Origin: a virus
Taxonomy: Duplodnaviria; Heunggongvirae; Uroviricota; Caudoviricetes
Virus record (IMG/VR): IMGVR_UViG_2636416131_000001
Coordinates: 1 to 64,000 of that record
Strand: one strand, 5' to 3'
Length of the DNA: 64,000 nucleotides
The notes beneath the pieces were generated by a model. It saw only the letters and a program-made list of their open reading frames with translations, made no database searches and was not told the DNA's origin. A program made the position numbers and the translations under genes. This document shows, in pieces, positions 33,063 to 55,053 of the stretch. Every line of letters begins with the position of its first letter. Positions within the stretch are counted from its first letter, which is position 1.

Positions 33063-34256
33063 GTGACCTGGGACGATCACAAGAAGAATTTTGCTCGCCT
33101 GGCGCGAGATGGTGGTTACACCATCGCACAGTATGCCGCCGAGTTTAATCTTAACCCTAATACTGCACGTCGTTATCTCCGTGCCTTCAAAGAAGACACC
33201 AGGACAGCGGACAGCCGCAAGCCAAATAAGCCAGTCAGGAAGCCACTAAAAAGCATGATCATTGATCACTCTAATGATCAACATGCAGGTGATCACATTG
33301 CGGCTGAAATAGCGGAAAAACAAAGGGTTAATGCCGTTGTCAGTGCCGCAGTCGAGAATGCGAAGCGCCAAAATAAGCGCATAAATGATCGTTCAGATGA
33401 TCATGACGTGATCACCCGCGCCCACCGGACCTTACGTGATCGCCTGGAACGCGACACCCTGGATGATGATGGTGAACGCTTTGAATTCGAAGCTGGCGAT
33501 TACCTGATAGATAACGTTGAAGCGCGGAAGGCCGCGCGCGCTATGTTGCGTCGTTCCGGAGCTGATGTTCTGGAAACCACTCTTCTGGAAAAGTCTCTTT
33601 CTCATCTCCTTATGCTGGAGAATGCCAGGGATACGTGTATTCGCTTGGTGCAGGAAATGCGCGATCAGCAAAAAGAAGATGATGAAGGTACTCCGCCTGA
33701 ATACCGTATCGCGAGCATGCTAAACAGCTGTTCCGCGCAGATAAGCAGCCTGATCAACACCATTTACAGCATCCGGAATAACTATCGAAAAGAAAGCCGG
33801 GAGGCGGAAAAGCACGCTTTGTCTATGGGGCAAGCTGGCATTGTTAAGCTGGCATACGAACGAAAGCGTGAAAATAACTGGTCAGTGCTGGAAGCAGCTG
33901 AATTCATCGAGGCGCATGGCGGGAAAGTGCCGCCCCTGATGCTGGAGCAAATCAAAGCCGATCTGCGTGCTCCTAAGACCAATACCGATGATGAGGAAAG
34001 GCAAACTGCCGTCGGTGGCCCTTCTCTTGAAGATCTGGACAAAGTTGCGCGAGAACGGGCCGCCAACCGCCGCGCCGATGCCGCATTGTGGATTGAGCAA
34101 CGTAGGGAAGAAATCGCCGATATCGTTGATACAGGCGGTTATGGAGATGTTGATACTGAAGGTGTATCAAACGAACCATGGCTGGAACAAGACCTGGACG
34201 AAGACGAGGAGGAAGACGAAGAAGTTACCCGCAAGCTATACGGGGATGATGATTAA
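33063..34256 (+). CDS. pacA: terminase small (pac-recognition) subunit
   Basis: GTG start after AAGGAAG SD; 397 aa; contains the pac site in its 5' part as in P1. Confidence 0.8.
33256..33414. other. P1-type pac packaging site (4 + 3 TGATCA/G hexanucleotides)
   Basis: TGATCA at 33256, 33263, 33275, 33290, then TGATCG/TGATCA at 33386, 33398, 33409; each carries a GATC Dam site. Confidence 0.75.
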
Positions 34257-35770
34257 TGGCCAGAAGTTGCGTAACGGATCCACGTTGGCGCGAGCTGGTG
34301 GCGCTATATCGTTATGACTGGATTGCGGCCGCTGATGTTTTGTTCGGCAAAACACCTACCTGGCAGCAGGATCTGATTATTGAGTCTGTGCAGGAACAGG
34401 GTAGCAAGACATCTGTTTCGTCTGGTCACGGTACCGGGAAATCAGACATGACTTCTATCATGATCATGTTGTTCATAATCATGTATCCCGGTGCCCGCGC
34501 CATTATCGTTGCGAACAAAATTCAGCAGGTAATGACCGGTATATTCAAGTACATCAAGATAAACTGGGCTACTGCCACCAGCCGTTTTCCATGGCTTGCT
34601 GATTATTTTGTTCTGACAGAAACCGCTTTCTATGAGGTTACTGGTAAAGGTGTATGGACTGTAGTACCGAAGGGCTTTCGTCTGGGAAGTGAAGAAGCTC
34701 TCGCCGGTGAACACGCAGATCATCTTCTGTATATTATCGATGAAGCCTCCGGTGTCAGTGATAGAGCTTTCGGTATCATCACCGGTGCTCTTACCGGACA
34801 GGATAACCGCATCTTATTACTGTCACAGCCTACACGCCCAAGCGGCTATTTCTACGATACTCACCATAAACTGGCCAAGCGTCCTGGTAACCCTGATGGC
34901 GTTTATACGGCGATCACGCTTAACAGTGAGGAATCACCGCTGGTAACGCCAGCATTTATCAAAATGAAGCTGGCGGAGTACGGCGGGCGCGATAACCCTA
35001 TGTACATGATTAAGGTACGCGGCCTATTCCCTAAATCACAGGATGGCTTCCTTCTTGGACGTGATGAGGTTGAACGTGCAACGCGGCGGAAAGTCAAGAT
35101 TGCCAAAGGATGGGGCTGGCTTGCATGTGTGGACGTTGCTGGTGGTACGGGAAGGGATAAGTCCGTTATCAATATCATGATGGTGTCCGGCCAGAGAAAT
35201 AAACGCCGTGTAATCAACTATCGAATGCTGGAATACACAGACGTTACAGAAACGCAGCTTGCCGCCAAAATTTTCGCAGAATGTAATCCTGAGCGATTCC
35301 CAAATATTACCATAGCGATAGACGGCGATGGCCTGGGTAAAGCAACGGCGGATCTGATGTACGAGTATTATGGTATTACCGTACAGCGTATACGCTGGGG
35401 TAAAAAGATGCATAGCCGTGAAGATAAGAGCCTGTACTTTGATAAACGTGCTTATGCCAACGTTCAAGCCGCAGAGGCCGTAAAATCTGGTCGTATGAGA
35501 CTGGATAAGGGTAATGAAACTATTGAGGAAGCGTCGAAAATCCCTGTAGGGATTAACTCCGCAGGTCAATGGAAGGTGATGAGTAAGGAGGATATGAAGA
35601 AAAAACTCAACCTGCACTCACCAGACCATTGGGATACATATTGTTTCGCTATGCTGGCGGATTATGTTCCCCAGGACGAAGTGCTTAGCGTCGAAGACGA
35701 AGCGCAGGTTGATGAAGCTCTGGCATGGCTTAATGAATTAATATTTGCTCTAATAAATTGTGTTTTTTAA
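34256..35770 (+). CDS. pacB: terminase large subunit
   Basis: 504 aa; TAATG overlap with pacA; synteny. Confidence 0.8.
35744..35760 (+). promoter_or_regulatory. C1 operator-like box (15/17) at the pacB 3' end
   Basis: TTTGCTCTAATAAATTG. Confidence 0.45.
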
Positions 35771-35891
35771 CTGCCGATGTTACATTGAACCTGACCTCTT
35801 GCGCCTTGAGGCATTTTCGGTTTATGCTTATCAGGCACCTCAGTAAAACGGGTGCCGGGATTGGAACCCCGGATAATGTCAAAGGCGACAC

Positions 35892-35916
35892 AGACGCCAA
35901 AAGCGTCTTTTTTTGT
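35892..35916 (+). terminator. rho-independent terminator after pacB
   Basis: AGACGC-CAAAA-GCGTCT hairpin followed by a T9 run. Confidence 0.6.
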
Positions 35917-35939
35917 GTCATGCCATCGCACGGCCATAC

Positions 35940-36090
35940 GTAGCGTTTAGCTCAGAGATCAATGGTAGTGCTGGCTGGGCTGCCGAAAGGCAGGCCGGTT
36001 CCCTTTGACGCCGGTAGTTCCAACCCAGTCAGTGCTACCGCCATTGAGATTGGAACCTCACGCGGTAGCTCCTTAACTTAGTCAAAGGAG
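35940..36090 (+). ncRNA. structured leader, candidate c4-like antisense RNA locus
   Basis: 16-bp stem (GGTAGTGCTGGCTGGG with CCCAGTCAGTGCTACC, allowing G-U); GGTTCC/GTTCCAACC elements complementary to ATTGGAACC copies at 35850 and 36047. Confidence 0.3.
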
Positions 36091-36099
36091 GCTGCCATT

Positions 36100-36321
36100 A
36101 TGGCTACTATCCCTACCCCAACTCATCCTGAATTTATCTGGCGCTTTTACTCCTGCCAAAAACGTCACTATCACTTCGTTATTGCACCGACAGAAGATGA
36201 GGCCCGCTCTCAGCTTCCTGACGCCCCATGTATTTTCTCTGCCCGTTTTTCCACTGATTCACGCAATTCTCTCAGTTACTGGTGCCTCCCTGTTAACGCT
36301 TCTGTTCAGGAGGGGCTATGA
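36100..36321 (+). CDS. Icd-like small protein (possible cell-division inhibitor)
   Basis: 73 aa with AAGGAGG SD; HPEFIWRF motif recalled from Icd-like proteins; 4-nt overlap with the antirepressor-like gene. Confidence 0.4.
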   Translation: MATIPTPTHPEFIWRFYSCQKRHYHFVIAPTEDEARSQLPDAPCIFSARFSTDSRNSLSYWCLPVNASVQEGL

Positions 36322-37430
36322 GAACGTCATTAGTCACCCGTGAAGAGATGATCGAGGCAATTGAACAGCACACTGCCTGTATCAGCACCAGGGATATTCC
36401 CAGTGTTATAGCCAACTACTTCATGATCACTAAACAACTTTACCGGAGAAAGGACAAGAACGCGGTTCACCGTATCCTGCTGTCTGATATTCGCGAATAC
36501 CTGCTCGAACAGGGTCATCTGAATTACGCAACCGTCGCAGCCGAAGCACGCAAGGAGGCACACAGAATGAAAGCAACTAACGTTAAATCAGAAAAAATTC
36601 ATGCACCTTCAGTTCAGGAATCGGAGCTGGTGGTTGTTCAGAATCAGTCTGATGAAATTCCCGTTCTGGAATGGCTGGGAGTGCGTGTAGTGACAACTGA
36701 GACTCTTGCTAAAGGGTATGGGACCGATGAAGCGAATATTCGTAAAAATTTGTCTCGCAACCCCGATCGCTTTGAAGAAGGTAAGCATTACTATCTCTTA
36801 ACTGGTTCAAAATTAAAGGAATTTAAAAGGCTAGTGACTATTAGTCACTTGGTTAGCAAATATACAAGTCAGGTAATTCTCTGGGCCGAGCGCGGAGCGG
36901 CACGCATGTCTAAGATCGTGGACACAAATGAAGCATGGGCATTCTTTGAAAAACTGGAAGACAGCTACTTCCGGCAAAAAGAACAGCAACCGGTTGCAAT
37001 CCCCCAAACATTACCAGAAGCCCTACGCCTGGCTGCCGAACTGGCTGAAAAAAAGCAGCTTCTGGAACAGAAAGCCCACCAGCTAAATCAGCAGCTGGTA
37101 GCCGCCGCTCCTAAGGTCGATTTTGCCGACCGGGTATCAGTAGCTAAAGGGATCCTGATTGGGAATTTTGCAAAGGTTGTTGGACTTAAGCAAAACGCGC
37201 TGTTTGCCTGGTTACGGGAGAACGGCATCCTGATAGCGTCCGGTGGACGTAAAAATGTGCCGTTCCAGCAGTACATCAACGCGGGGTATTTCACGGTGAA
37301 AGAAGTGGTGCTGGATGATGAAGATGGCTACCAGATACGGTTGACGCCTCAATTAACGGGTAAAGGCCAGCAGTGGTTGACGCGTAAACTGCTCGATGCT
37401 GGCTTGTTAAAACCGGTGGCGGTTGAATAA
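36318..37430 (+). CDS. phage antirepressor-like protein (ORF6N-like N-domain, KilAC-like C-domain)
   Basis: LEWLGVRVVTTETLAKGYGTDEANIRKNL in the N-part; VVGLKQNALFAWLRENGIL...NVPFQQYINAGYF in the C-part. Confidence 0.55.
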   Translation: MRTSLVTREEMIEAIEQHTACISTRDIPSVIANYFMITKQLYRRKDKNAVHRILLSDIREYLLEQGHLNYATVAAEARKEAHRMKATNVKSEKIHAPSVQESELVVVQNQSDEIPVLEWLGVRVVTTETLAKGYGTDEANIRKNLSRNPDRFEEGKHYYLLTGSKLKEFKRLVTISHLVSKYTSQVILWAERGAARMSKIVDTNEAWAFFEKLEDSYFRQKEQQPVAIPQTLPEALRLAAELAEKKQLLEQKAHQLNQQLVAAAPKVDFADRVSVAKGILIGNFAKVVGLKQNALFAWLRENGILIASGGRKNVPFQQYINAGYFTVKEVVLDDEDGYQIRLTPQLTGKGQQWLTRKLLDAGLLKPVAVE

Positions 37431-37462
37431 TGGAAGAATGCCCGGTTGATGCCGGGCATAAT

Positions 37463-38314
37463 TTATTGCGCGCTTTCGGGGTTGTCGTTTACTGGCTGCC
37501 CCTTCTTGGTTTTACGGCTGCGCGTAACTGATGCGGCTGACTTAACCTTTTTCTCTTCGCGAGTGATGGCAATTTGTTTTTTTACATTTTCAATATCTGC
37601 CAGGCGATATATTTTTGCTTGCGGCCAGCGGTCGCAGATGATCGGTTCTATGGAGTCATAAAGGCTAAATTTTGCTTTTTCGAATTCACCGTTGATGATA
37701 ATTCCATCACGGAGAGTTTCATCGCAGATAAACACGCCACACAGTGGCACATGGTAACTAACTGATTTGCCATCATTGTAGTTAGGGCTACTGGAAATGT
37801 AGTGGACGCGCAGCATTGTTTCGCTAAAGCCGTGTACGCGCATACGGAATTTTTCATCCTCCGGGTACTGCTTCATTAGCTCTTTTGTTGCTTCCAGGTT
37901 CTCTATGTATTTCGCACTGTGCTCATTGATCCCTGCGCTTTTCTGGATGCGAATGTCCTTATCAATCAGATGAATAATGCGACCGGCGGTCATGTTGACG
38001 CTGTTCACAGCTTCTGTCTGATAAGTCGTAACCTTACGCACACCGCGAAGGATGTTAGGCACTGGATATAAAATAGTCTTTGGGATATTGAGGTCTGGGT
38101 ACTGTTCCAGTTCCCGCGCCATTAAAGTCCATTTATCAATTTCAGCCTGAATGCTGTCAGTTTCTTTGAACGGTAGAACGACAACCGGGCGTACAGGACG
38201 ACCGTCGCTGGCTGTATCAACGTGTTGGGCGCGTGCAACAGCTTTTTTTAGAAAGAGATCCCTGAAGCTGACGAACTCCTGGTACAGTTGTTCGCCGTAG
38301 ACATAATTTATCAT
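37463..38314 (-). CDS. c1: C1 repressor of lysogeny
   Basis: 283 aa beginning MINYVYGEQLYQEFVSFRDLFLKKAVARAQHVD; matches P1 C1 as I recall it. Confidence 0.9.
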   Translation of the reverse strand: MINYVYGEQLYQEFVSFRDLFLKKAVARAQHVDTASDGRPVRPVVVLPFKETDSIQAEIDKWTLMARELEQYPDLNIPKTILYPVPNILRGVRKVTTYQTEAVNSVNMTAGRIIHLIDKDIRIQKSAGINEHSAKYIENLEATKELMKQYPEDEKFRMRVHGFSETMLRVHYISSSPNYNDGKSVSYHVPLCGVFICDETLRDGIIINGEFEKAKFSLYDSIEPIICDRWPQAKIYRLADIENVKKQIAITREEKKVKSAASVTRSRKTKKGQPVNDNPESAQ

Positions 38315-38408: not shown

Positions 38409-38425
38409 AGATTTATTAGTGCATT
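38409..38425 (-). promoter_or_regulatory. degenerate C1 operator-like box (14/17) between coi and c1
   Basis: Reverse complement AATGCACTAATAAATCT. Confidence 0.3.
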
Positions 38426-38634
38426 TATTGTGAGTCTAACTGGTTAGTTGCCATGAGATATTCGATTGTGTCAGTGAGGTCATCCAGGTCGTCTTGGGTG
38501 ATGCGGTACTCCTGATTGGATATCTTTGAGTAGTGTTCAGCAATGGCGCGGGCAGCGTCGGTTTCGGCAGGGTCTACAGATAAAGCGTTAGAGCAATGTC
38601 TAACGTCGTCGATGGTTGGTTGAATGAAAGCCAT
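38425..38634 (-). CDS. coi: C1 inactivator
   Basis: 69 aa MAFIQPTIDDVRHCSNALSVDPAETDAARAIAEHY... immediately upstream of c1. Confidence 0.8.
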   Translation of the reverse strand: MAFIQPTIDDVRHCSNALSVDPAETDAARAIAEHYSKISNQEYRITQDDLDDLTDTIEYLMATNQLDSQ

Positions 38635-38872: not shown

Positions 38873-38889
38873 TAATTTATTAGAGCAAT
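38873..38889 (-). promoter_or_regulatory. C1 operator box (16/17) in the coi/c1 promoter region
   Basis: Reverse complement ATTGCTCTAATAAATTA adjacent to a TATAAT. Confidence 0.55.
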
Positions 38890-39467: not shown

Positions 39468-40499
39468 ATGTCCAATTTACTGACCGTACACCAAAATTTG
39501 CCTGCATTACCGGTCGATGCAACGAGTGATGAGGTTCGCAAGAACCTGATGGACATGTTCAGGGATCGCCAGGCGTTTTCTGAGCATACCTGGAAAATGC
39601 TTCTGTCCGTTTGCCGGTCGTGGGCGGCATGGTGCAAGTTGAATAACCGGAAATGGTTTCCCGCAGAACCTGAAGATGTTCGCGATTATCTTCTATATCT
39701 TCAGGCGCGCGGTCTGGCAGTAAAAACTATCCAGCAACATTTGGGCCAGCTAAATATGCTTCATCGTCGGTCCGGGCTGCCACGACCAAGTGACAGCAAT
39801 GCTGTTTCACTGGTCATGCGACGGATCCGAAAAGAAAACGTTGATGCCGGTGAGCGTGCAAAACAGGCATTGGCGTTCGAACGCACTGATTTCGACCAGG
39901 TTCGTTCACTCATGGAAAATAGCGATCGCTGCCAGGATATACGTAATCTGGCATTTCTTGGGATTGCTTATAATACCCTGCTACGTATAGCAGAAATTGC
40001 CAGGATCAGGGTTAAAGATATCTCACGTACTGACGGTGGGAGAATGTTAATCCATATTGGCAGAACGAAAACGCTGGTTAGCGCCGCAGGTGTAGAGAAG
40101 GCACTTAGCCTGGGGGTAACTAAACTGGTCGAGCGATGGATTTCTGTCTCTGGTGTAGCTGATGATCCTAATAACTACCTGTTTTGCCGGGTCAGAAAAA
40201 ATGGTGTTGCCGCGCCATCTGCCACCAGCCAGCTATCAACTCGCGCCCTGGAAGGGATTTTTGAAGCAACTCATCGATTGATTTACGGCGCTAAGGATGA
40301 CTCTGGTCAGAGATACCTGGCCTGGTCTGGACACAGTGCCCGTGTCGGAGCCGCGCGAGATATGGCCCGCGCTGGAGTTTCAATACCGGAGATCATGCAA
40401 GCTGGTGGCTGGACCAATGTAAATATTGTCATGAACTATATCCGTAACCTGGATAGTGAAACAGGGGCAATGGTGCGCCTGCTGGAAGATGGCGATTAG
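39468..40499 (+). CDS. cre: Cre tyrosine recombinase
   Basis: 343 aa beginning MSNLLTVHQNLPALPVDATSDEVRKNLMDMFRDRQAFSEHTWKMLLSVCRSWAAWCKLNNRKWFPAEPEDVRDYLLYLQARGLAVKTIQQHLGQLNMLHRRSGLPRPSDSNAVSLVMRRIRKENVDAGERAKQALAFERTDFDQVRSLMENSDRCQDIRNLAFLGIAYNTLLRIAEIARIRVKDISRTDGGRMLIHIGRTKTLVS; matches P1 Cre as I recall it. Confidence 0.97.
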   Translation: MSNLLTVHQNLPALPVDATSDEVRKNLMDMFRDRQAFSEHTWKMLLSVCRSWAAWCKLNNRKWFPAEPEDVRDYLLYLQARGLAVKTIQQHLGQLNMLHRRSGLPRPSDSNAVSLVMRRIRKENVDAGERAKQALAFERTDFDQVRSLMENSDRCQDIRNLAFLGIAYNTLLRIAEIARIRVKDISRTDGGRMLIHIGRTKTLVSAAGVEKALSLGVTKLVERWISVSGVADDPNNYLFCRVRKNGVAAPSATSQLSTRALEGIFEATHRLIYGAKDDSGQRYLAWSGHSARVGAARDMARAGVSIPEIMQAGGWTNVNIVMNYIRNLDSETGAMVRLLEDGD

Positions 40500-47400: not shown

Positions 47401-50400
47401 TGCTGCACCGCATCGGCGTACTCCGGCAGGAAACGATAGGTGATCCGGCGATAGTACAGGTCCATGTCAGTACATACGCGGTCCATATCCCTGATTATTG
47501 AGAAGATCGGACGGGCTTTCTCGTGCTCAATCACGCCGTCTTCATTGACCGAGGTCGTTACGCCATTGTTGGCTTTGGCCGCCGCTTCCGCCTGCTGACG
47601 CAATTCTTCATACGCCGCCAGTTGTTCTTCAGTAAGTGGTGCATCCTGCTGGTGTTCGTCCAGCTCCGGGATCTCCACGGTATCCTTAACGTCTTCCGCC
47701 GTTTTAAGCGTTACCCAGCGATGGAATATACCGCGCAGCGCATCAAGGTTTTCAAAGCCCACCAGCGCCATTTTTTCTTCAACTTCACCGCTAATTTTCT
47801 GTACCGTTTCCAGCCTGGTCTTGCCGAAGAATTTAACGAAGTCATCAGGACCGTAGATCCCCATGTTCTGCCAGTATTCCTTCGGCAGAACATGAGAAAG
47901 CATGTTGTATGCATCGATCGGGGTGTTAACGACTGGCGTTGCAGTCAGGAGAACCGGCCCGCGCCCACCATTCTTTTTCATCAGGTACGCGTTTTTAATT
48001 GCCATATCTCGCGCCGATTGCGCCACCGCGCTGGTGGGCAGATAGGCCAGTTGTGACGCTTCGCGACCATTTTTATAGCTATTGCGGTAGTTGTGACCTT
48101 CGTCAGCGATCACACTATCGAAGCCCATATCCTCAAAGTACGGATACTTCTCTGCTTTTTCGGTGCCGGTATCTGAATACTCCGACAATACCCGGCGACG
48201 CGCGGCCTCTTTGCGGTGGGAGTCGGAGTCCATTGCGCTGGCTACGCGTCCGGCGGCAACGAAGTCATAAAGCATATCCTGTGCATGCTCATCTACGGTG
48301 TCATCACGTAGCGGAATGCGGGCGTATTGTTCTTTGGTAAACACGACTGCACGGTAATTTGAGTGCGGGATCGCGTTCATCCGCGCCGTGATAGTGGCTT
48401 CATCTGCCAGCTTAAGAGCATCGCGCATAACTGGAGTGCCATCAGTACCAAGAACAGGTTTACCGTTCTCATCGAGCACCTGCACCTGGCGAATCTGATC
48501 GCCATCCATCAGCACATCAAGACCGACGAACAGGTAGTTACTGAATGCCTCTTCACTCAGGAATTCTTTTGCTTCGTAATACCAGTTTTCCAGCACTGAT
48601 TTAGGCACTACATACGCAGTACGGGTGGAGCGACCGTTCTCATAGTTGAACGCCTCAAGCGCCAGCGCGGTCGTGGTTTTACCCAGCCCGGTGCCGAAGC
48701 CCAGGATGCCGCGCCCATCTTCGGACAGTCGGCGCACCTCGCTATTCTGGTAATCAAATGGCTGGCGCTTACCGCTTAATCCCTTCAACCCAAGCGGATC
48801 GCCAGAGTGTTCATACGGGATATTGCTATTGAACACATCGTTGTATTTAGCAACCAGCTCATCGTAGCGATCGTGCGTCTTGATCCACTTATTGAACTGG
48901 TCCTCAAGCAGTGCCATCTGCTCGCGGTAGCCGTTCGCCGTCGCGCTATCTTTGCCACCGATACGCGCACCATTGAGATACTTTTCCAGCTGTGCCGGGA
49001 ACCCGGTCGCGTTTTCACCTGATTTACGGTCCCACTCGTAGCGGATCTCGCCTGTTTCTTTATCCTTACGCTGGACGACACCGTATCGGTGCCCGACGAA
49101 CAGGCCATCACCACCGTGATAGGTGTCAGAAACCATTTCGTCGCCTTCCAGCTGCACTGACTGCACATAGCGCAGATCCGGATAGCCGTTTTCCTGCAAA
49201 AACTCCAGAATGACGGAACGGTCGAACCAACGGCTATTGAGCTTAAAGCGGATATTCTCTGCTGGCGTCTTGATGCGCTTCTCTTCGATCGCTGCCAGCT
49301 GATTAAGGACGTTGTTCTTTACTGGACCGTCGGGGAGCGTGGCGAGGAATTCCTGTTTTGGAGCCACTATCTCGTTAATGTCGCCGCTGGTGGCGCGGGC
49401 GAACGGAACAATCCCGCCATACGGTGAAACCGCAATGCCAGGGGTGCTGGCCAATAAATTAAGCAACTCGTCATCACTGGCTGGCAGTTCGCCGGTAAAC
49501 GCAAGGCGGAAATCATCGAGCTGGATTGGATCGCGAGTGAGATCACTGTAGAGATAACGCAGGGTGTCCTGATAGCTGGTGGAGTCATAACTGGCGCTGG
49601 AATCATGCGTAACCAGTTTTCCTGTCAGCTCGTCAGAAATAGTGCCATCCAGCTTAATTGCACCACGGAAAGCAAACCAGGCGCGCGCACCGCTCCCCGA
49701 TAATTTCGCTATCGGACCGCGACCGGGGTTACCAAAACGGTCAATCTCTGCCTGCAAACGGAATACCAGAGAAAGGCGCTGCTGTTCGATTTGTTCAGCA
49801 CTATGCCCGGCGGCCTTCATGTCCTGATATTCAATTAACATCCGGCCAATCATCGCCCCGCGATACAAGCGTTCACGGTATTTTTCAGGCTGGCTGTTAA
49901 TCCAGTCCACCAGCTGCACCATATCGTCGCTGATTGATGTGGTGTACTTATCGCGGACATTTGCCATCTGGGTAAATGTCATGCCGAGACGGCCTTCTGT
50001 TGTAGTCAGGTTACGCTGAAGAGCCTCCCAGCTATCCGCGCCATAACTGGCAGCATCGATCTTAAGTTCCTTCCCTGCATCAGCTTCAATCCAGCGACCA
50101 CCAGCATATTTTTGCCATACGCCATTAATCAGGCGCATTTCCCCTTCACCAACAACGTCTGCGGTCGGTGACGGTTCAGCCATATCGAGCAAAGACCAGT
50201 CGATACGGCTTTCGAAACGATGAATCAGCTTCGCTTTAAGAGCCTGGTTATCAATCTGACCGTCGGCACGAACCTCAATACGCCCCTGGAAGCCCTTTTC
50301 CTGGGTGCCATGAACAAACCGGCGGCCGTCCTTTTCAAACCACTTGCCAGAAATAAACGTTGGCCAAAGCACATTTGCCGATTCGAGAGTGCTTTCATCC

Positions 50401-55036: not shown

Positions 55037-55053
55037 ATTGCTCTAATTAATTT
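55037..55053 (+). promoter_or_regulatory. C1 operator box (16/17) upstream of ssb
   Basis: ATTGCTCTAATTAATTT. Confidence 0.55.

What the first reader, a model, noticed from the sequence alone, without database searches (positions are those of the whole stretch)
35940..37430. icd-like/antirepressor module with structured leader between pacB and c1
After the pacB terminator there is a 160-nt leader with a 16-bp G-U-tolerant stem and short elements (GGTTCC, GTTCCAACC) complementary to two ATTGGAACC copies, one of them about 40 nt upstream of the next ATG. This is followed by a 73-aa FIWRF-motif protein and a 370-aa ORF6N/KilAC antirepressor-like protein. The layout fits the antisense-RNA-controlled immI logic (c4, icd, ant). 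As I recall, canonical P1 immI lies elsewhere, next to kilA/repL, so this may be a relocated or extra antirepressor module directly upstream of immC.
Basis: partly seen in the sequence, partly recalled or inferred. Interest (0 to 1): 0.5.

Follow-up and report, generated by a model that had tools for sequence, protein, structure and literature searches.

The report
Second antisense-controlled antirepressor operon beside c1
A P1-like phage-plasmid carries, between its DNA-packaging gene and its main repressor gene, a complete extra copy of the phage's small-RNA-controlled antirepressor operon with its own RNA recognition code. This is real and probably working, but it is common in such plasmids and has already been noted in print.

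Summary
Window 35737-37462 replaces the 27-bp pacB/c1 spacer of phage P1 with a full immI-type operon. It holds:
- a C1-operator-like site;
- an IsrK-like leader RNA carrying target sites a1 and b1 and a terminator;
- a C4 antisense RNA (Rfam 77 bits);
- target sites a2 and b2, with b2 over the icd Shine-Dalgarno;
- icd (82% identical to P1 Icd);
- ant1/ant2, overlapping icd in ATGA.

The pairing scheme needs correcting. These elements co-vary at all positions in 162 related modules, which fall into 16 specificity classes.

Canonical P1 and P7 lack the module. About 55% of c1-carrying plasmids in PLSDB (385 of 702) have one at this site. Phage RCS47 has it, and a 2019 paper mentions the insertion.

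The nearest plasmid (99.9% identical) also keeps a P7-type immI with a different C4 specificity, so the two RNA locks look independent.

Verdict: a known kind of system, already described at annotation level. The only modest novelty is the apparent combinatorial set of immunity specificities. Nothing was tested functionally.

The parts
35737..37462 (+). Whole inserted module. It fills the space between the stop codons of the convergent genes pacB and c1 and replaces 27 bp of P1.
   Evidence: Alignment of the junctions with P1. P1 annotation: pacB ends at 93206 and c1 ends at 93231.
35744..35760 (+). C1-operator-like site TTTGCTCTAATAAATTG, inside the 10-codon C-terminal extension of pacB. It sits in the same relative position as P1 Oc4 (Op51).
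   Evidence: 15 of 17 matches to the consensus ATTGCTCTAATAAATTT. It is one of 15 sites in the window, against 0.24 expected by chance. The core TTGCTCTAATAAATTG is kept in all junction variants. P1 Oc4 is shown.
35758..35828 (+). Two predicted weak promoters, assigned by position analogy with P1 P2c4 and P1c4: TTGTGT-17-TACATT (35758-35786, overlapping the operator) and TTGCGC-18-TATGCT (35799-35828, 7 nt upstream of the IsrK-like 5' end).
   Evidence: Read from the sequence and compared with the P1 annotation. Each matches the consensus at only 7 of 12 positions, and the consensus scan did not report them. This is inference only.
35835..35913 (+). IsrK-like leader RNA, the homologue of the P1 a1b1 leader. 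It has hairpin 1, hairpin 2 with a1 in its loop, single-stranded b1, and a terminator hairpin followed by U7.
   Evidence: Rfam isrK RF01394 scores 61.9 bits (gathering score 50). c4-a1b1 RF03163 scores 23.1 bits, below its threshold. Fold. The P1 leader hits isrK at 35.1 bits.
35861..35867 (+). a1 target site UUGGAAC.
   Evidence: Longest complement of the C4 junction found upstream of c4. Covariation.
35878..35885 (+). b1 target site GUCAAAGG.
35892..35914 (+). Intrinsic terminator: hairpin AGACGC-CAAAA-GCGTCT followed by T7. It ends the short IsrK-like RNA and would also stop pacB transcripts.
   Evidence: Terminator scan and the Rfam isrK alignment.
35958..36045 (+). C4 antisense RNA gene. 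The mature RNA is predicted at about 35964-36042 by homology with the 77-nt P1 C4.
   Evidence: Rfam RF01695 scores 77.1 bits, full length. Fold z = -5.0. 12 of 28 pairs are compensatory across three backbones.
36002..36009 (+). b' recognition element CCUUUGAC, in the loop of hairpin 2 of C4.
36017..36023 (+). a' recognition element GUUCCAA, in the single-stranded 3' junction of C4.
36050..36056 (+). a2 target site UUGGAAC, 7 nt after C4.
36081..36091 (+). b2 target site GUCAAAGG (36081-36088), overlapping the icd Shine-Dalgarno AAGGAGG (36085-36091).
36100..36321 (+). icd: 73-aa Icd-like cell-division inhibitor, serving as the leader ORF for ant.
   Evidence: 82% identical to P1 Icd. NCBIfam phage_ICD_like scores 49.8 bits against a cut-off of 25. 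phrog_1426 E = 1e-45.
36318..37430 (+). ant1: 370-aa antirepressor. Its start overlaps the icd stop in ATGA.
   Evidence: 56% identical to P1 Ant1. Pfam ORF6N plus KilAC. phrog_63 'anti-repressor Ant' E = 4e-131.
36567..37430 (+). Predicted ant2: in-frame internal start at Met84, preceded by AAGGAGG 8 nt upstream.
   Evidence: The start is at the same codon as P1 ant2 (48937 against ant1 at 48688). Alignment, sequence.
37438..37459 (.). 9-bp hairpin between the ant and c1 stop codons, a candidate two-way terminator.
   Evidence: Terminator scan.

Best explanation
This is a complete second immI-type immunity operon of a P1-like phage-plasmid. It sits in the spacer between the convergent genes pacB and c1.

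Proposed mechanism, by homology with P1 immI and Gifsy-1 isrK:
1. Transcription starts just after pacB, from promoters next to a C1 operator.
2. Part of it stops at the terminator at 35892-35914 and gives a short IsrK-like RNA that carries sites a1 and b1.
3. Read-through transcripts carry c4, icd and ant.
4. C4 (about 79 nt) is cut out of the read-through transcript. Its elements a' (GUUCCAA) and b' (CCUUUGAC) pair with a2 and b2 on the mRNA.
5. Because b2 covers the icd ribosome-binding site, icd is not translated. Because ant is coupled to icd (ATGA overlap), Ant1 and Ant2 are not made either.
6. If C4 is missing or is titrated, Ant is made and inactivates the C1 repressor. This would happen on entry into a cell without a matching C4, or when the a1/b1-bearing short RNA is in excess.

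The C4 specificity here (class A) differs from the P1 and P7 types. The module is therefore a separate lock from the canonical immI operon.

Shown: homology of every part, the RNA structure, and the co-variation of the pairing sites. Inferred: that the RNAs are made, that C4 represses, that the operator works, and that this Ant binds C1.
For: - RNA families: Rfam C4 at 77.1 bits and isrK at 61.9 bits, both above their gathering scores.
- C4 fold: z = -5.0, and 12 of 28 pairs are compensatory.
- Target sites: an unbiased search for complements of the C4 loop and junction finds a1, b1, a2 and b2 at fixed positions in every relative, with b2 ending 10-11 nt before the icd ATG.
- Co-variation: formal counts give 100% pairing and 7 of 15 pairs with changes on both sides, against 26-56% pairing in slid controls.
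- Breadth: all 162 modules scanned have all four sites matching their own a' and b'.
- Proteins: Icd is 82% identical to P1 Icd. Ant shares its N- and C-terminal parts, the Met84 Ant2 start and the ATGA coupling with P1.
- Operator: a C1-operator-like site lies in the position of P1 Oc4.
- Ant type: the same ORF6N-type Ant (98% identical in its middle part) fills the canonical immI slot before kilA-repL in L031.
- Independence: CP100027.1, 99.9% identical over the module, also has a P7-type immI C4 with a' CUGCUAA and b' UCACAAUC. In 38 genomes or contigs with two or more modules, no two share both elements.
- Experimental precedent: for Gifsy-1, the IsrK residues G28 and G31 that pair with 'orf45' fall in the a1 loop by Rfam numbering, and orf45 is processed to an RNA of about 80 nt (PMC4825925).
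Against: - There are no expression or binding data for this module.
- The two predicted promoters match the consensus at only 7 of 12 positions, and the scan did not report them.
- The middle third of Ant is not homologous to P1 Ant; it is an ORF6N domain instead. Binding to C1 is therefore assumed, not shown.
- A good terminator lies between the promoters and c4, so the supply of C4 depends on read-through of unknown extent.
- c4-a1b1 scores below its Rfam threshold here: 23.1 bits against 46.7.
- The window does not include the canonical immI region, so the presence of two modules in this very genome rests on a near-identical relative.
Confidence: 0.8

Rival explanations
1. The RNA control works as described, but this Ant acts mainly on something other than the element's own C1. 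Candidates are repressors of co-resident prophages or of rival P1-like elements. The module would then be a tool of competition between elements rather than part of the element's own lysis-lysogeny switch.
For: The middle domain differs from P1 Ant (ORF6N). It is highly variable among modules at this site, 62-100% identical, while C1 is at least 96.5% identical in the phage records listed. The same isrK-C4 cassette drives unrelated Rha-like regulators in Stx phages and in D6.
Against: The Ant1-specific N-terminus and the KilAC C-terminus are close to P1 Ant. The same Ant type sits in the canonical immI slot of some P1-like elements (L031). A C1-operator-like site precedes the operon.
Confidence: 0.12
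2. The module is a silent passenger: a recombination product that is kept but not expressed, and that has no effect on immunity.
For: The predicted promoters are weak, and a strong terminator lies ahead of c4. Laboratory P1 and P7 do without the module.
Against: All ORFs are intact. The module is present in 385 of 702 c1-carrying plasmids. Six separate short elements change in concert across five classes at this site without a single broken pair, which is hard to explain without selection on the RNA pairing.
Confidence: 0.05
3. The region 35940-36100 is only a structured 5' leader, for example a cis-acting attenuator of icd/ant, and does not give rise to a separate trans-acting small RNA.
For: No separate promoter for c4 was found between the terminator and c4.
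Against: P1 C4 is also made by processing of a longer transcript, and it acts in trans (P1 annotation; review PMC12197685). The structure is a full-length, high-scoring member of that family. Target sites both upstream and downstream co-vary with it.
Confidence: 0.03

Closest known systems
Phage P1/P7 immI operon (Oc4, P1c4/P2c4, a1 b1, c4, a2 b2, icd, ant1/ant2)
   Same: Same order of all parts. C4 has the same three-helix fold. b2 lies over the icd ribosome-binding site. icd is 73 aa and 82% identical. The icd/ant ATGA overlap and the Ant2 start at Met84 are kept. The Ant N-terminal part is conserved and the C-terminal KilAC part is nearly identical in the pairwise alignment. A C1-operator-like site lies upstream.
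   Different: The location is between pacB and c1 rather than between sim and kilA-repL. The recognition sequences differ: a is UUGGAAC against UUGACAG in P1 and UUAGCAG in P7; b is GUCAAAGG against GUUAGUGA in P1 and GAUUGUGA in P7. The leader is closer to Salmonella IsrK than to the P1 a1b1 leader. The Ant middle domain is replaced by ORF6N.
pacB-c1 'ant' insertion of phage RCS47 (FO818745) and plasmid pTZ20_1P
   Same: Same site, same gene order and the same backbone. RCS47 matches 91% of the segment at 95% identity. The insertion is noted in PMC6906374.
   Different: RCS47 has a different a element (UUGAGAC, class B) and an Ant middle part only 68% identical. In those records only ant is annotated; the RNAs and icd are not described.
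Gifsy-1 isrK-orf45-anrP locus of Salmonella (Hershko-Shalev 2016, PMC4825925)
   Same: An IsrK-type leader with a terminator, giving a short RNA and a read-through mRNA. A conserved segment of about 80 nt is processed out of the transcript. There is a small upstream ORF whose stop overlaps the antirepressor start in AUGA. The short RNA activates translation in trans by pairing with that segment.
   Different: Here the segment after IsrK is a clear C4 RNA, followed by a separate icd gene. In Gifsy-1 it was read as a coding 'orf45'. That orf45 is a C4 homologue is my inference and was not tested here. The downstream targets also differ: C1 of P1 here, the Gifsy repressor and antQ there.
Phage D6 icd/antirepressor region and Stx-phage isrK-C4 cassettes
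   Same: D6 is 92% identical over IsrK, C4 and the start of icd. Stx2 phage F039 is annotated with isrK followed by C4 upstream of a regulator gene.
   Different: D6 is class D (UUGAGAC with GCAAAAGG) and drives a Rha/Roi/KilA-like protein. The Stx phages lack icd and are only about 69% identical.
Satellite phage P4 CI immunity RNA
   Same: The C4 part of the window matches the P4 immunity region at 74% identity (X02534.1, 2560-2713). From my own knowledge, P4 CI RNA and P1 C4 are known to be related processed antisense RNAs.
   Different: From my own knowledge, P4 CI causes premature transcription termination rather than blocking an antirepressor ribosome-binding site. P4 has no icd or ant.

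Membership tests
C4 antisense RNA (Rfam RF01695) | Covariance-model score at or above the gathering score, over the full length of the model. | tested here: met
   77.1 bits against 45, model positions 1-87 of 87.
C4 antisense RNA (Rfam RF01695) | A long closing stem enclosing two hairpins, supported by compensatory changes. | tested here: met
   The MFE structure has this shape, z = -5.0. 12 of 28 pairs show changes on both sides across three backbones.
C4 antisense RNA (Rfam RF01695) | Two exposed elements, a' and b', complementary to a2 and b2 in the downstream mRNA, with b2 at the ribosome-binding site. | tested here: met
   7-nt and 8-nt perfect complements lie 7 nt after C4 and over the icd Shine-Dalgarno. 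They co-vary with 100% pairing.
C4 antisense RNA (Rfam RF01695) | A processed RNA of about 77 nt is present in lysogens and represses in trans. | not testable with these tools
   This needs a northern blot or RNA-seq, and reporter assays.
IsrK / c4-a1b1 leader (Rfam RF01394, RF03163) | Covariance-model score at or above the gathering score. | tested here: met
   isrK scores 61.9 bits against 50. c4-a1b1 scores only 23.1 against 46.7, so membership holds for isrK but not for the P1-type a1b1 model.
IsrK / c4-a1b1 leader (Rfam RF01394, RF03163) | Carries sites a1 and b1 complementary to the downstream C4, and ends in an intrinsic terminator. | tested here: met
   Sites, co-variation, terminator.
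IsrK / c4-a1b1 leader (Rfam RF01394, RF03163) | The short RNA binds Hfq and activates translation of the read-through mRNA in trans. | not testable with these tools
   Known only for Gifsy-1 (PMC4825925).
Icd (NCBIfam NF033153 phage_ICD_like) | HMM score above the cut-off and close similarity to P1 Icd. | tested here: met
   49.8 bits against 25. 82% identical to P1 Icd over 66 residues, and the same length of 73 aa.
P1 Ant1/Ant2 antirepressor | C-terminal KilAC (PF03374) domain and the Ant1-specific N-terminal part, with an in-frame internal start for Ant2. | tested here: met
   KilAC E = 1e-31. The N- and C-terminal parts align with P1 Ant1, and Met84 with its Shine-Dalgarno lies at the same codon as P1 ant2.
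P1 Ant1/Ant2 antirepressor | Middle region homologous to that of P1 Ant. | tested here: not met
   Residues of about 100-230 do not align meaningfully with P1 Ant. Pfam finds ORF6N here and none in P1 Ant1.
P1 Ant1/Ant2 antirepressor | Binds and inactivates the C1 repressor. | not testable with these tools
   This needs biochemistry or genetics.
P1 immI operon (as a locus) | A C1 operator overlapping the upstream one of two tandem promoters. | tested here: inconclusive
   The operator-like site matches 15 of 17 positions and is conserved. The promoter hexamers are weak, 7 of 12 each, and the scan did not report them.
P1 immI operon (as a locus) | Position between the sim genes and kilA-repL. 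| tested here: not met
   The module lies between pacB and c1. In the nearest relative the canonical site is occupied by a separate P7-type operon.

The most novel reading that the evidence does not exclude
P1-like phage-plasmids may carry two, and sometimes three, independent C4/IsrK-type RNA locks, each on its own antirepressor operon. The locks appear to be built from mix-and-match a and b recognition elements: 5 a' variants and 9 b' variants make 16 observed classes. Within the window's backbone, all four combinations of two a variants with two b variants exist. Immunity between natural P1-like elements would then follow a combinatorial code in which both locks must match, giving a far finer set of immunity groups than the classic P1/P7 pair. 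The pacB-c1 module would be the second digit of that code. I found no paper in the held library that says this, but I could not read Gilcrease & Casjens 2018, which may cover part of it.
Probability: 0.45. Interest if true: 0.5.

Novelty: already known. Interest (0 to 1): 0.27.

Why it matters
P1-like phage-plasmids are common in E. coli and Salmonella and often carry resistance genes. Which of them can coexist in a cell, exclude one another or induce one another depends on their immunity systems. If the second antirepressor operon works as inferred, the immunity group of a P1-like element is set by at least two independent antisense RNAs rather than one. More than half of sequenced P1-like plasmids would then differ from the textbook P1 circuit. 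The data also tie together two literatures: the P1 a1b1 leader and Salmonella IsrK look like the same RNA, and Gifsy-1 'orf45' looks like a C4 RNA. For genome annotation, the 'ash family protein' gene that NCBI's annotation pipeline (PGAP) calls here lies on the C4 RNA and is probably not a real gene.

Tried and rejected
Rejected. GGUUCC does not change in relatives whose a site is UUGAGAC.
- **A separate promoter for c4 between the terminator and c4 (35915-35957).** None was found, either by the scan or by eye. C4 is therefore taken to be processed from read-through transcripts.
- **TTGAAC (35785-35790) as a -35 box.** No usable -10 follows it at 16-18 nt.
- **c4-a1b1 Rfam membership.** Below threshold at 23.1 bits. 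The leader is filed under isrK instead.
- **Solved structures for Ant.** Only a weak, irrelevant match to ribosomal protein L9, E = 0.002.
- **Rfam KCNQ1OT1 hit at 36982-37091.** Noise: 12.5 bits against a threshold of 70.
- **Gilcrease & Casjens 2018 (PMC5800970), the D6 / P1-supercluster paper.** Not held, so I could not check whether it already lists C4 specificity types.
- **Test for avoidance of same-class pairs within a genome.** None was seen in 38 genomes or contigs. By my own estimate only about 0.4 would be expected by chance, so the test has no power.
Full report
**Setting.** The window is from a P1-like phage-plasmid. The genes around the finding are pacA (33063-34256), pacB (34256-35770), c1 (37463-38314, minus strand), coi (38425-38634, minus strand) and cre (39468-40499). 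In canonical P1, pacB ends at 93206 and the convergent c1 ends at 93231, so only 24 bp lie between the two coding sequences. In the window the two stop codons are about 1.7 kb apart. Aligning the junctions shows that similarity to P1 stops at the pacB stop codon (35737) and resumes at the c1 stop codon (37463). Counting the diverged stop-codon bases, 27 bp of P1 are replaced. In this variant pacB reads on for 10 extra codons into the inserted DNA.

**What the insert contains.** Rfam at curated thresholds finds two RNAs on the plus strand:
- isrK (RF01394) at 35835-35913, 61.9 bits against a gathering score of 50;
- C4 antisense RNA (RF01695) at 35958-36045, 77.1 bits against 45, covering the full model.

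The C4 segment folds into a 17-bp closing stem with four G.U pairs that encloses two hairpins. MFE is -46.5 kcal/mol, z = -5.0, and 0 of 200 shuffles fold as well.

Two proteins follow the RNAs.
- The 73-aa ORF (36100-36321) is 82% identical to P1 Icd and passes the NCBIfam Icd-like model.
- The 370-aa ORF (36318-37430) is 56% identical to P1 Ant1. The N-terminal 83 residues and the C-terminal KilAC domain are conserved. The middle third is unrelated to P1 Ant and is an ORF6N domain.
- Met84 (36567), with AAGGAGG 8 nt upstream, is at the same codon as the P1 ant2 start.
- The ant start overlaps the icd stop in ATGA, as in P1.

**Control region.** A C1-operator-like site, TTTGCTCTAATAAATTG (35744-35760), matches the consensus at 15 of 17 positions. 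It is one of 15 such sites in the window, against 0.24 expected by chance. It sits where Oc4 sits in P1 immI, and its core is kept in every junction variant examined. Two promoters can be proposed by position analogy with P1 P2c4 and P1c4. Their hexamers are weak and the scan did not report them, so this step is inference.

**The RNA pairing, corrected.** In P1, C4 has two exposed elements: b' in the loop of hairpin 2, and a' in the 3' junction. They pair with a2 and b2 on the icd-ant mRNA and with a1 and b1 upstream of c4 (annotation, sequence).

I searched without prior assumptions for the longest complement of the hairpin-2 loop and of the junction, both upstream and downstream of c4. In the window:
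- a' GUUCCAA (36017-36023) matches UUGGAAC at 35861-35867 (a1, in the loop of the second IsrK hairpin) and at 36050-36056 (a2);
- b' CCUUUGAC (36002-36009) matches GUCAAAGG at 35878-35885 (b1) and at 36081-36088 (b2);
- b2 overlaps the icd Shine-Dalgarno (36085-36091).

**Evidence from relatives.**
- Scans of IMG/VR with the window's Icd and with the Icd of the immI operon of plasmid CP100027.1 (a P7-type operon) returned 160 loci. About 58 of the first 80 have the same pacB-module-c1 layout.
- On 26 distinct leaders of the window's backbone type, all 390 cells of the a1:a', b1:b', a':a2 and b':b2 pairs are standard pairs. 7 of 15 pairs change on both sides. Sliding the partner by 1-3 columns drops pairing to 26-56%.
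- Across all loci held, 162 modules were typed, and every one has all four target sites matching its own a' and b'. They fall into 16 classes, built from 5 a' variants and 9 b' variants.
- At the pacB-c1 site there are five main classes. The window's class (UUGGAAC with GUCAAAGG) is the rarest, 4 of 61.
- Within the window's backbone, two a variants (GGAAC, GAGAC) and two b variants (GUCAAAGG, GCAAAAGG) occur in all four combinations. The a and b sites are interleaved along the DNA, so one crossover cannot produce these combinations. I take this as a sign of selection for new specificities; that is inference.
- The C4 helices show 12 of 28 pairs with compensatory changes across three backbones.

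**Extra, not relocated.**
- Plasmid CP100027.1 is 99.9% identical over the module. It also has a canonical sim / c4-icd-ant / kilA-repL region. The C4 there is P7-type: a' CUGCUAA and b' UCACAAUC, with matching targets.
- If the window is collinear with that plasmid, the canonical site lies about 14 kb before the start of the window. It cannot be checked for this genome. Only one C4 is found within the window.
- In 38 genomes or contigs with two or more modules, no two share both recognition elements. By my estimate only about 0.4 such pairs would be expected by chance, so this shows that the locks are independent but does not show avoidance.

**How common, and what is already known.**
- 702 PLSDB plasmids carry c1. 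385 of them have the 3' end of an ant gene abutting the 3' end of c1. 300 carry at least 80% of this 1.69-kb segment.
- Among phage records, RCS47, JL22 and vB_EcoM-673R5 have the module. P1, P7 and SJ46 matched only the conserved ant 3' part, at their own ant genes.
- RCS47 annotates an 'ant' gene there. Venturini et al. [quoted passage not shown] RCS47)' (PMC6906374).
- A paper on a D6-like prophage notes a second c4/icd region (PMC6799933).
- A Stx2 phage record already annotates isrK followed by C4.
- The C4 and c4-a1b1 motifs date from Weinberg et al. 2010 (PMC2864571).
- The module is therefore a known kind and has been noted in print. I did not find its RNA parts, or its separate specificity at this site, described in the held library. 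I could not read Gilcrease & Casjens 2018.

**Mechanism.**
- By homology with P1, C4 blocks the icd ribosome-binding site, and ant expression falls with it through translational coupling. The P1 annotation states this role, and so does the review PMC12197685. The Rho-dependent polarity step is from my own knowledge of the P1 literature.
- The leader adds the Gifsy-1 logic. Its terminator gives a short RNA that carries a1 and b1. In Salmonella, short IsrK activates translation of the read-through mRNA by pairing with the next segment, 'orf45'.
- That segment is conserved in nucleotides but not in amino acids, and it is processed to an RNA of about 80 nt. The IsrK residues shown to pair (G28, G31) lie in the a1 loop by Rfam numbering. 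I infer that orf45 is a C4 homologue and that IsrK-type RNAs act as decoys for C4. This was not tested here.
- The P1 leader itself hits isrK at 35 bits, which supports treating the two leaders as homologues.

**Verdict.** The feature is a well-formed, probably functional second immI-type operon. It is ordinary in kind and already recorded. The modest interest lies in the apparent two-lock, combinatorial immunity code, which still needs experiments.

Noticed in passing
window 35962-36081 (= L085 1692-1811): RefSeq/PGAP annotates a 39-aa 'ash family protein' gene that lies almost exactly on the C4 RNA. The name traces to the old 'ash' ORF over the CI immunity RNA of phage P4, which this region matches at 74% identity (X02534.1). 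The gene call is probably spurious, like 'orf45' in Gifsy-1.
   Followed up: partly
window 35738-35770: In this variant pacB has lost the P1 stop codon and reads 10 codons ([11 protein letters not shown]) into the inserted DNA, across the C1-operator-like site. Other variants (L030, L043) keep a stop at the P1 position.
   Followed up: partly
L059 about 3730-4003: In one IMG/VR contig an internal part of pacB is fused directly to the b2/Shine-Dalgarno region of icd, with no IsrK or C4. This is either a deletion that would leave icd-ant without its RNA repressor, or an assembly error.
   Followed up: no
L013 4219-5532: About 1.3 kb is inserted between icd and ant in one pacB-c1 module, which would break the translational coupling. 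The insert was not identified.
   Followed up: no
L068 627-5307; L020/L078; L142/L143: Some contigs carry further c4-icd-ant modules at other places. One has two divergent modules 2 kb apart. Another has a module a few kb beyond c1, on the cre side. So there is at least a third insertion site, in line with the 'RD-1' icd-ant1/2 segment of pSvP1 in PMC6906374.
   Followed up: partly
L031, L041, L079-L084: In some P1-like elements the canonical immI slot (before kilA-repL) holds the IsrK-type leader and C4 (class UUGGAAC with GCAAAAGG). In L031 it also holds the ORF6N-type Ant. The two backbone types therefore move between the two sites.
   Followed up: partly
window 7472-7544, 7550-7622, 9057-9129: Three tRNA genes on the plus strand (Rfam 65-75 bits), as expected for a P1-like genome.
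   Followed up: no
window, 15 sites (e.g. 6790-6806, 22416-22432, 38873-38889, 55037-55053): There are fifteen matches to the 17-bp C1 operator consensus with at most 3 mismatches, against 0.24 expected by chance. This is a map of the C1 regulon of this element. One pair (6790-6806 on plus, 6801-6817 on minus) overlaps like a bivalent operator.
   Followed up: no
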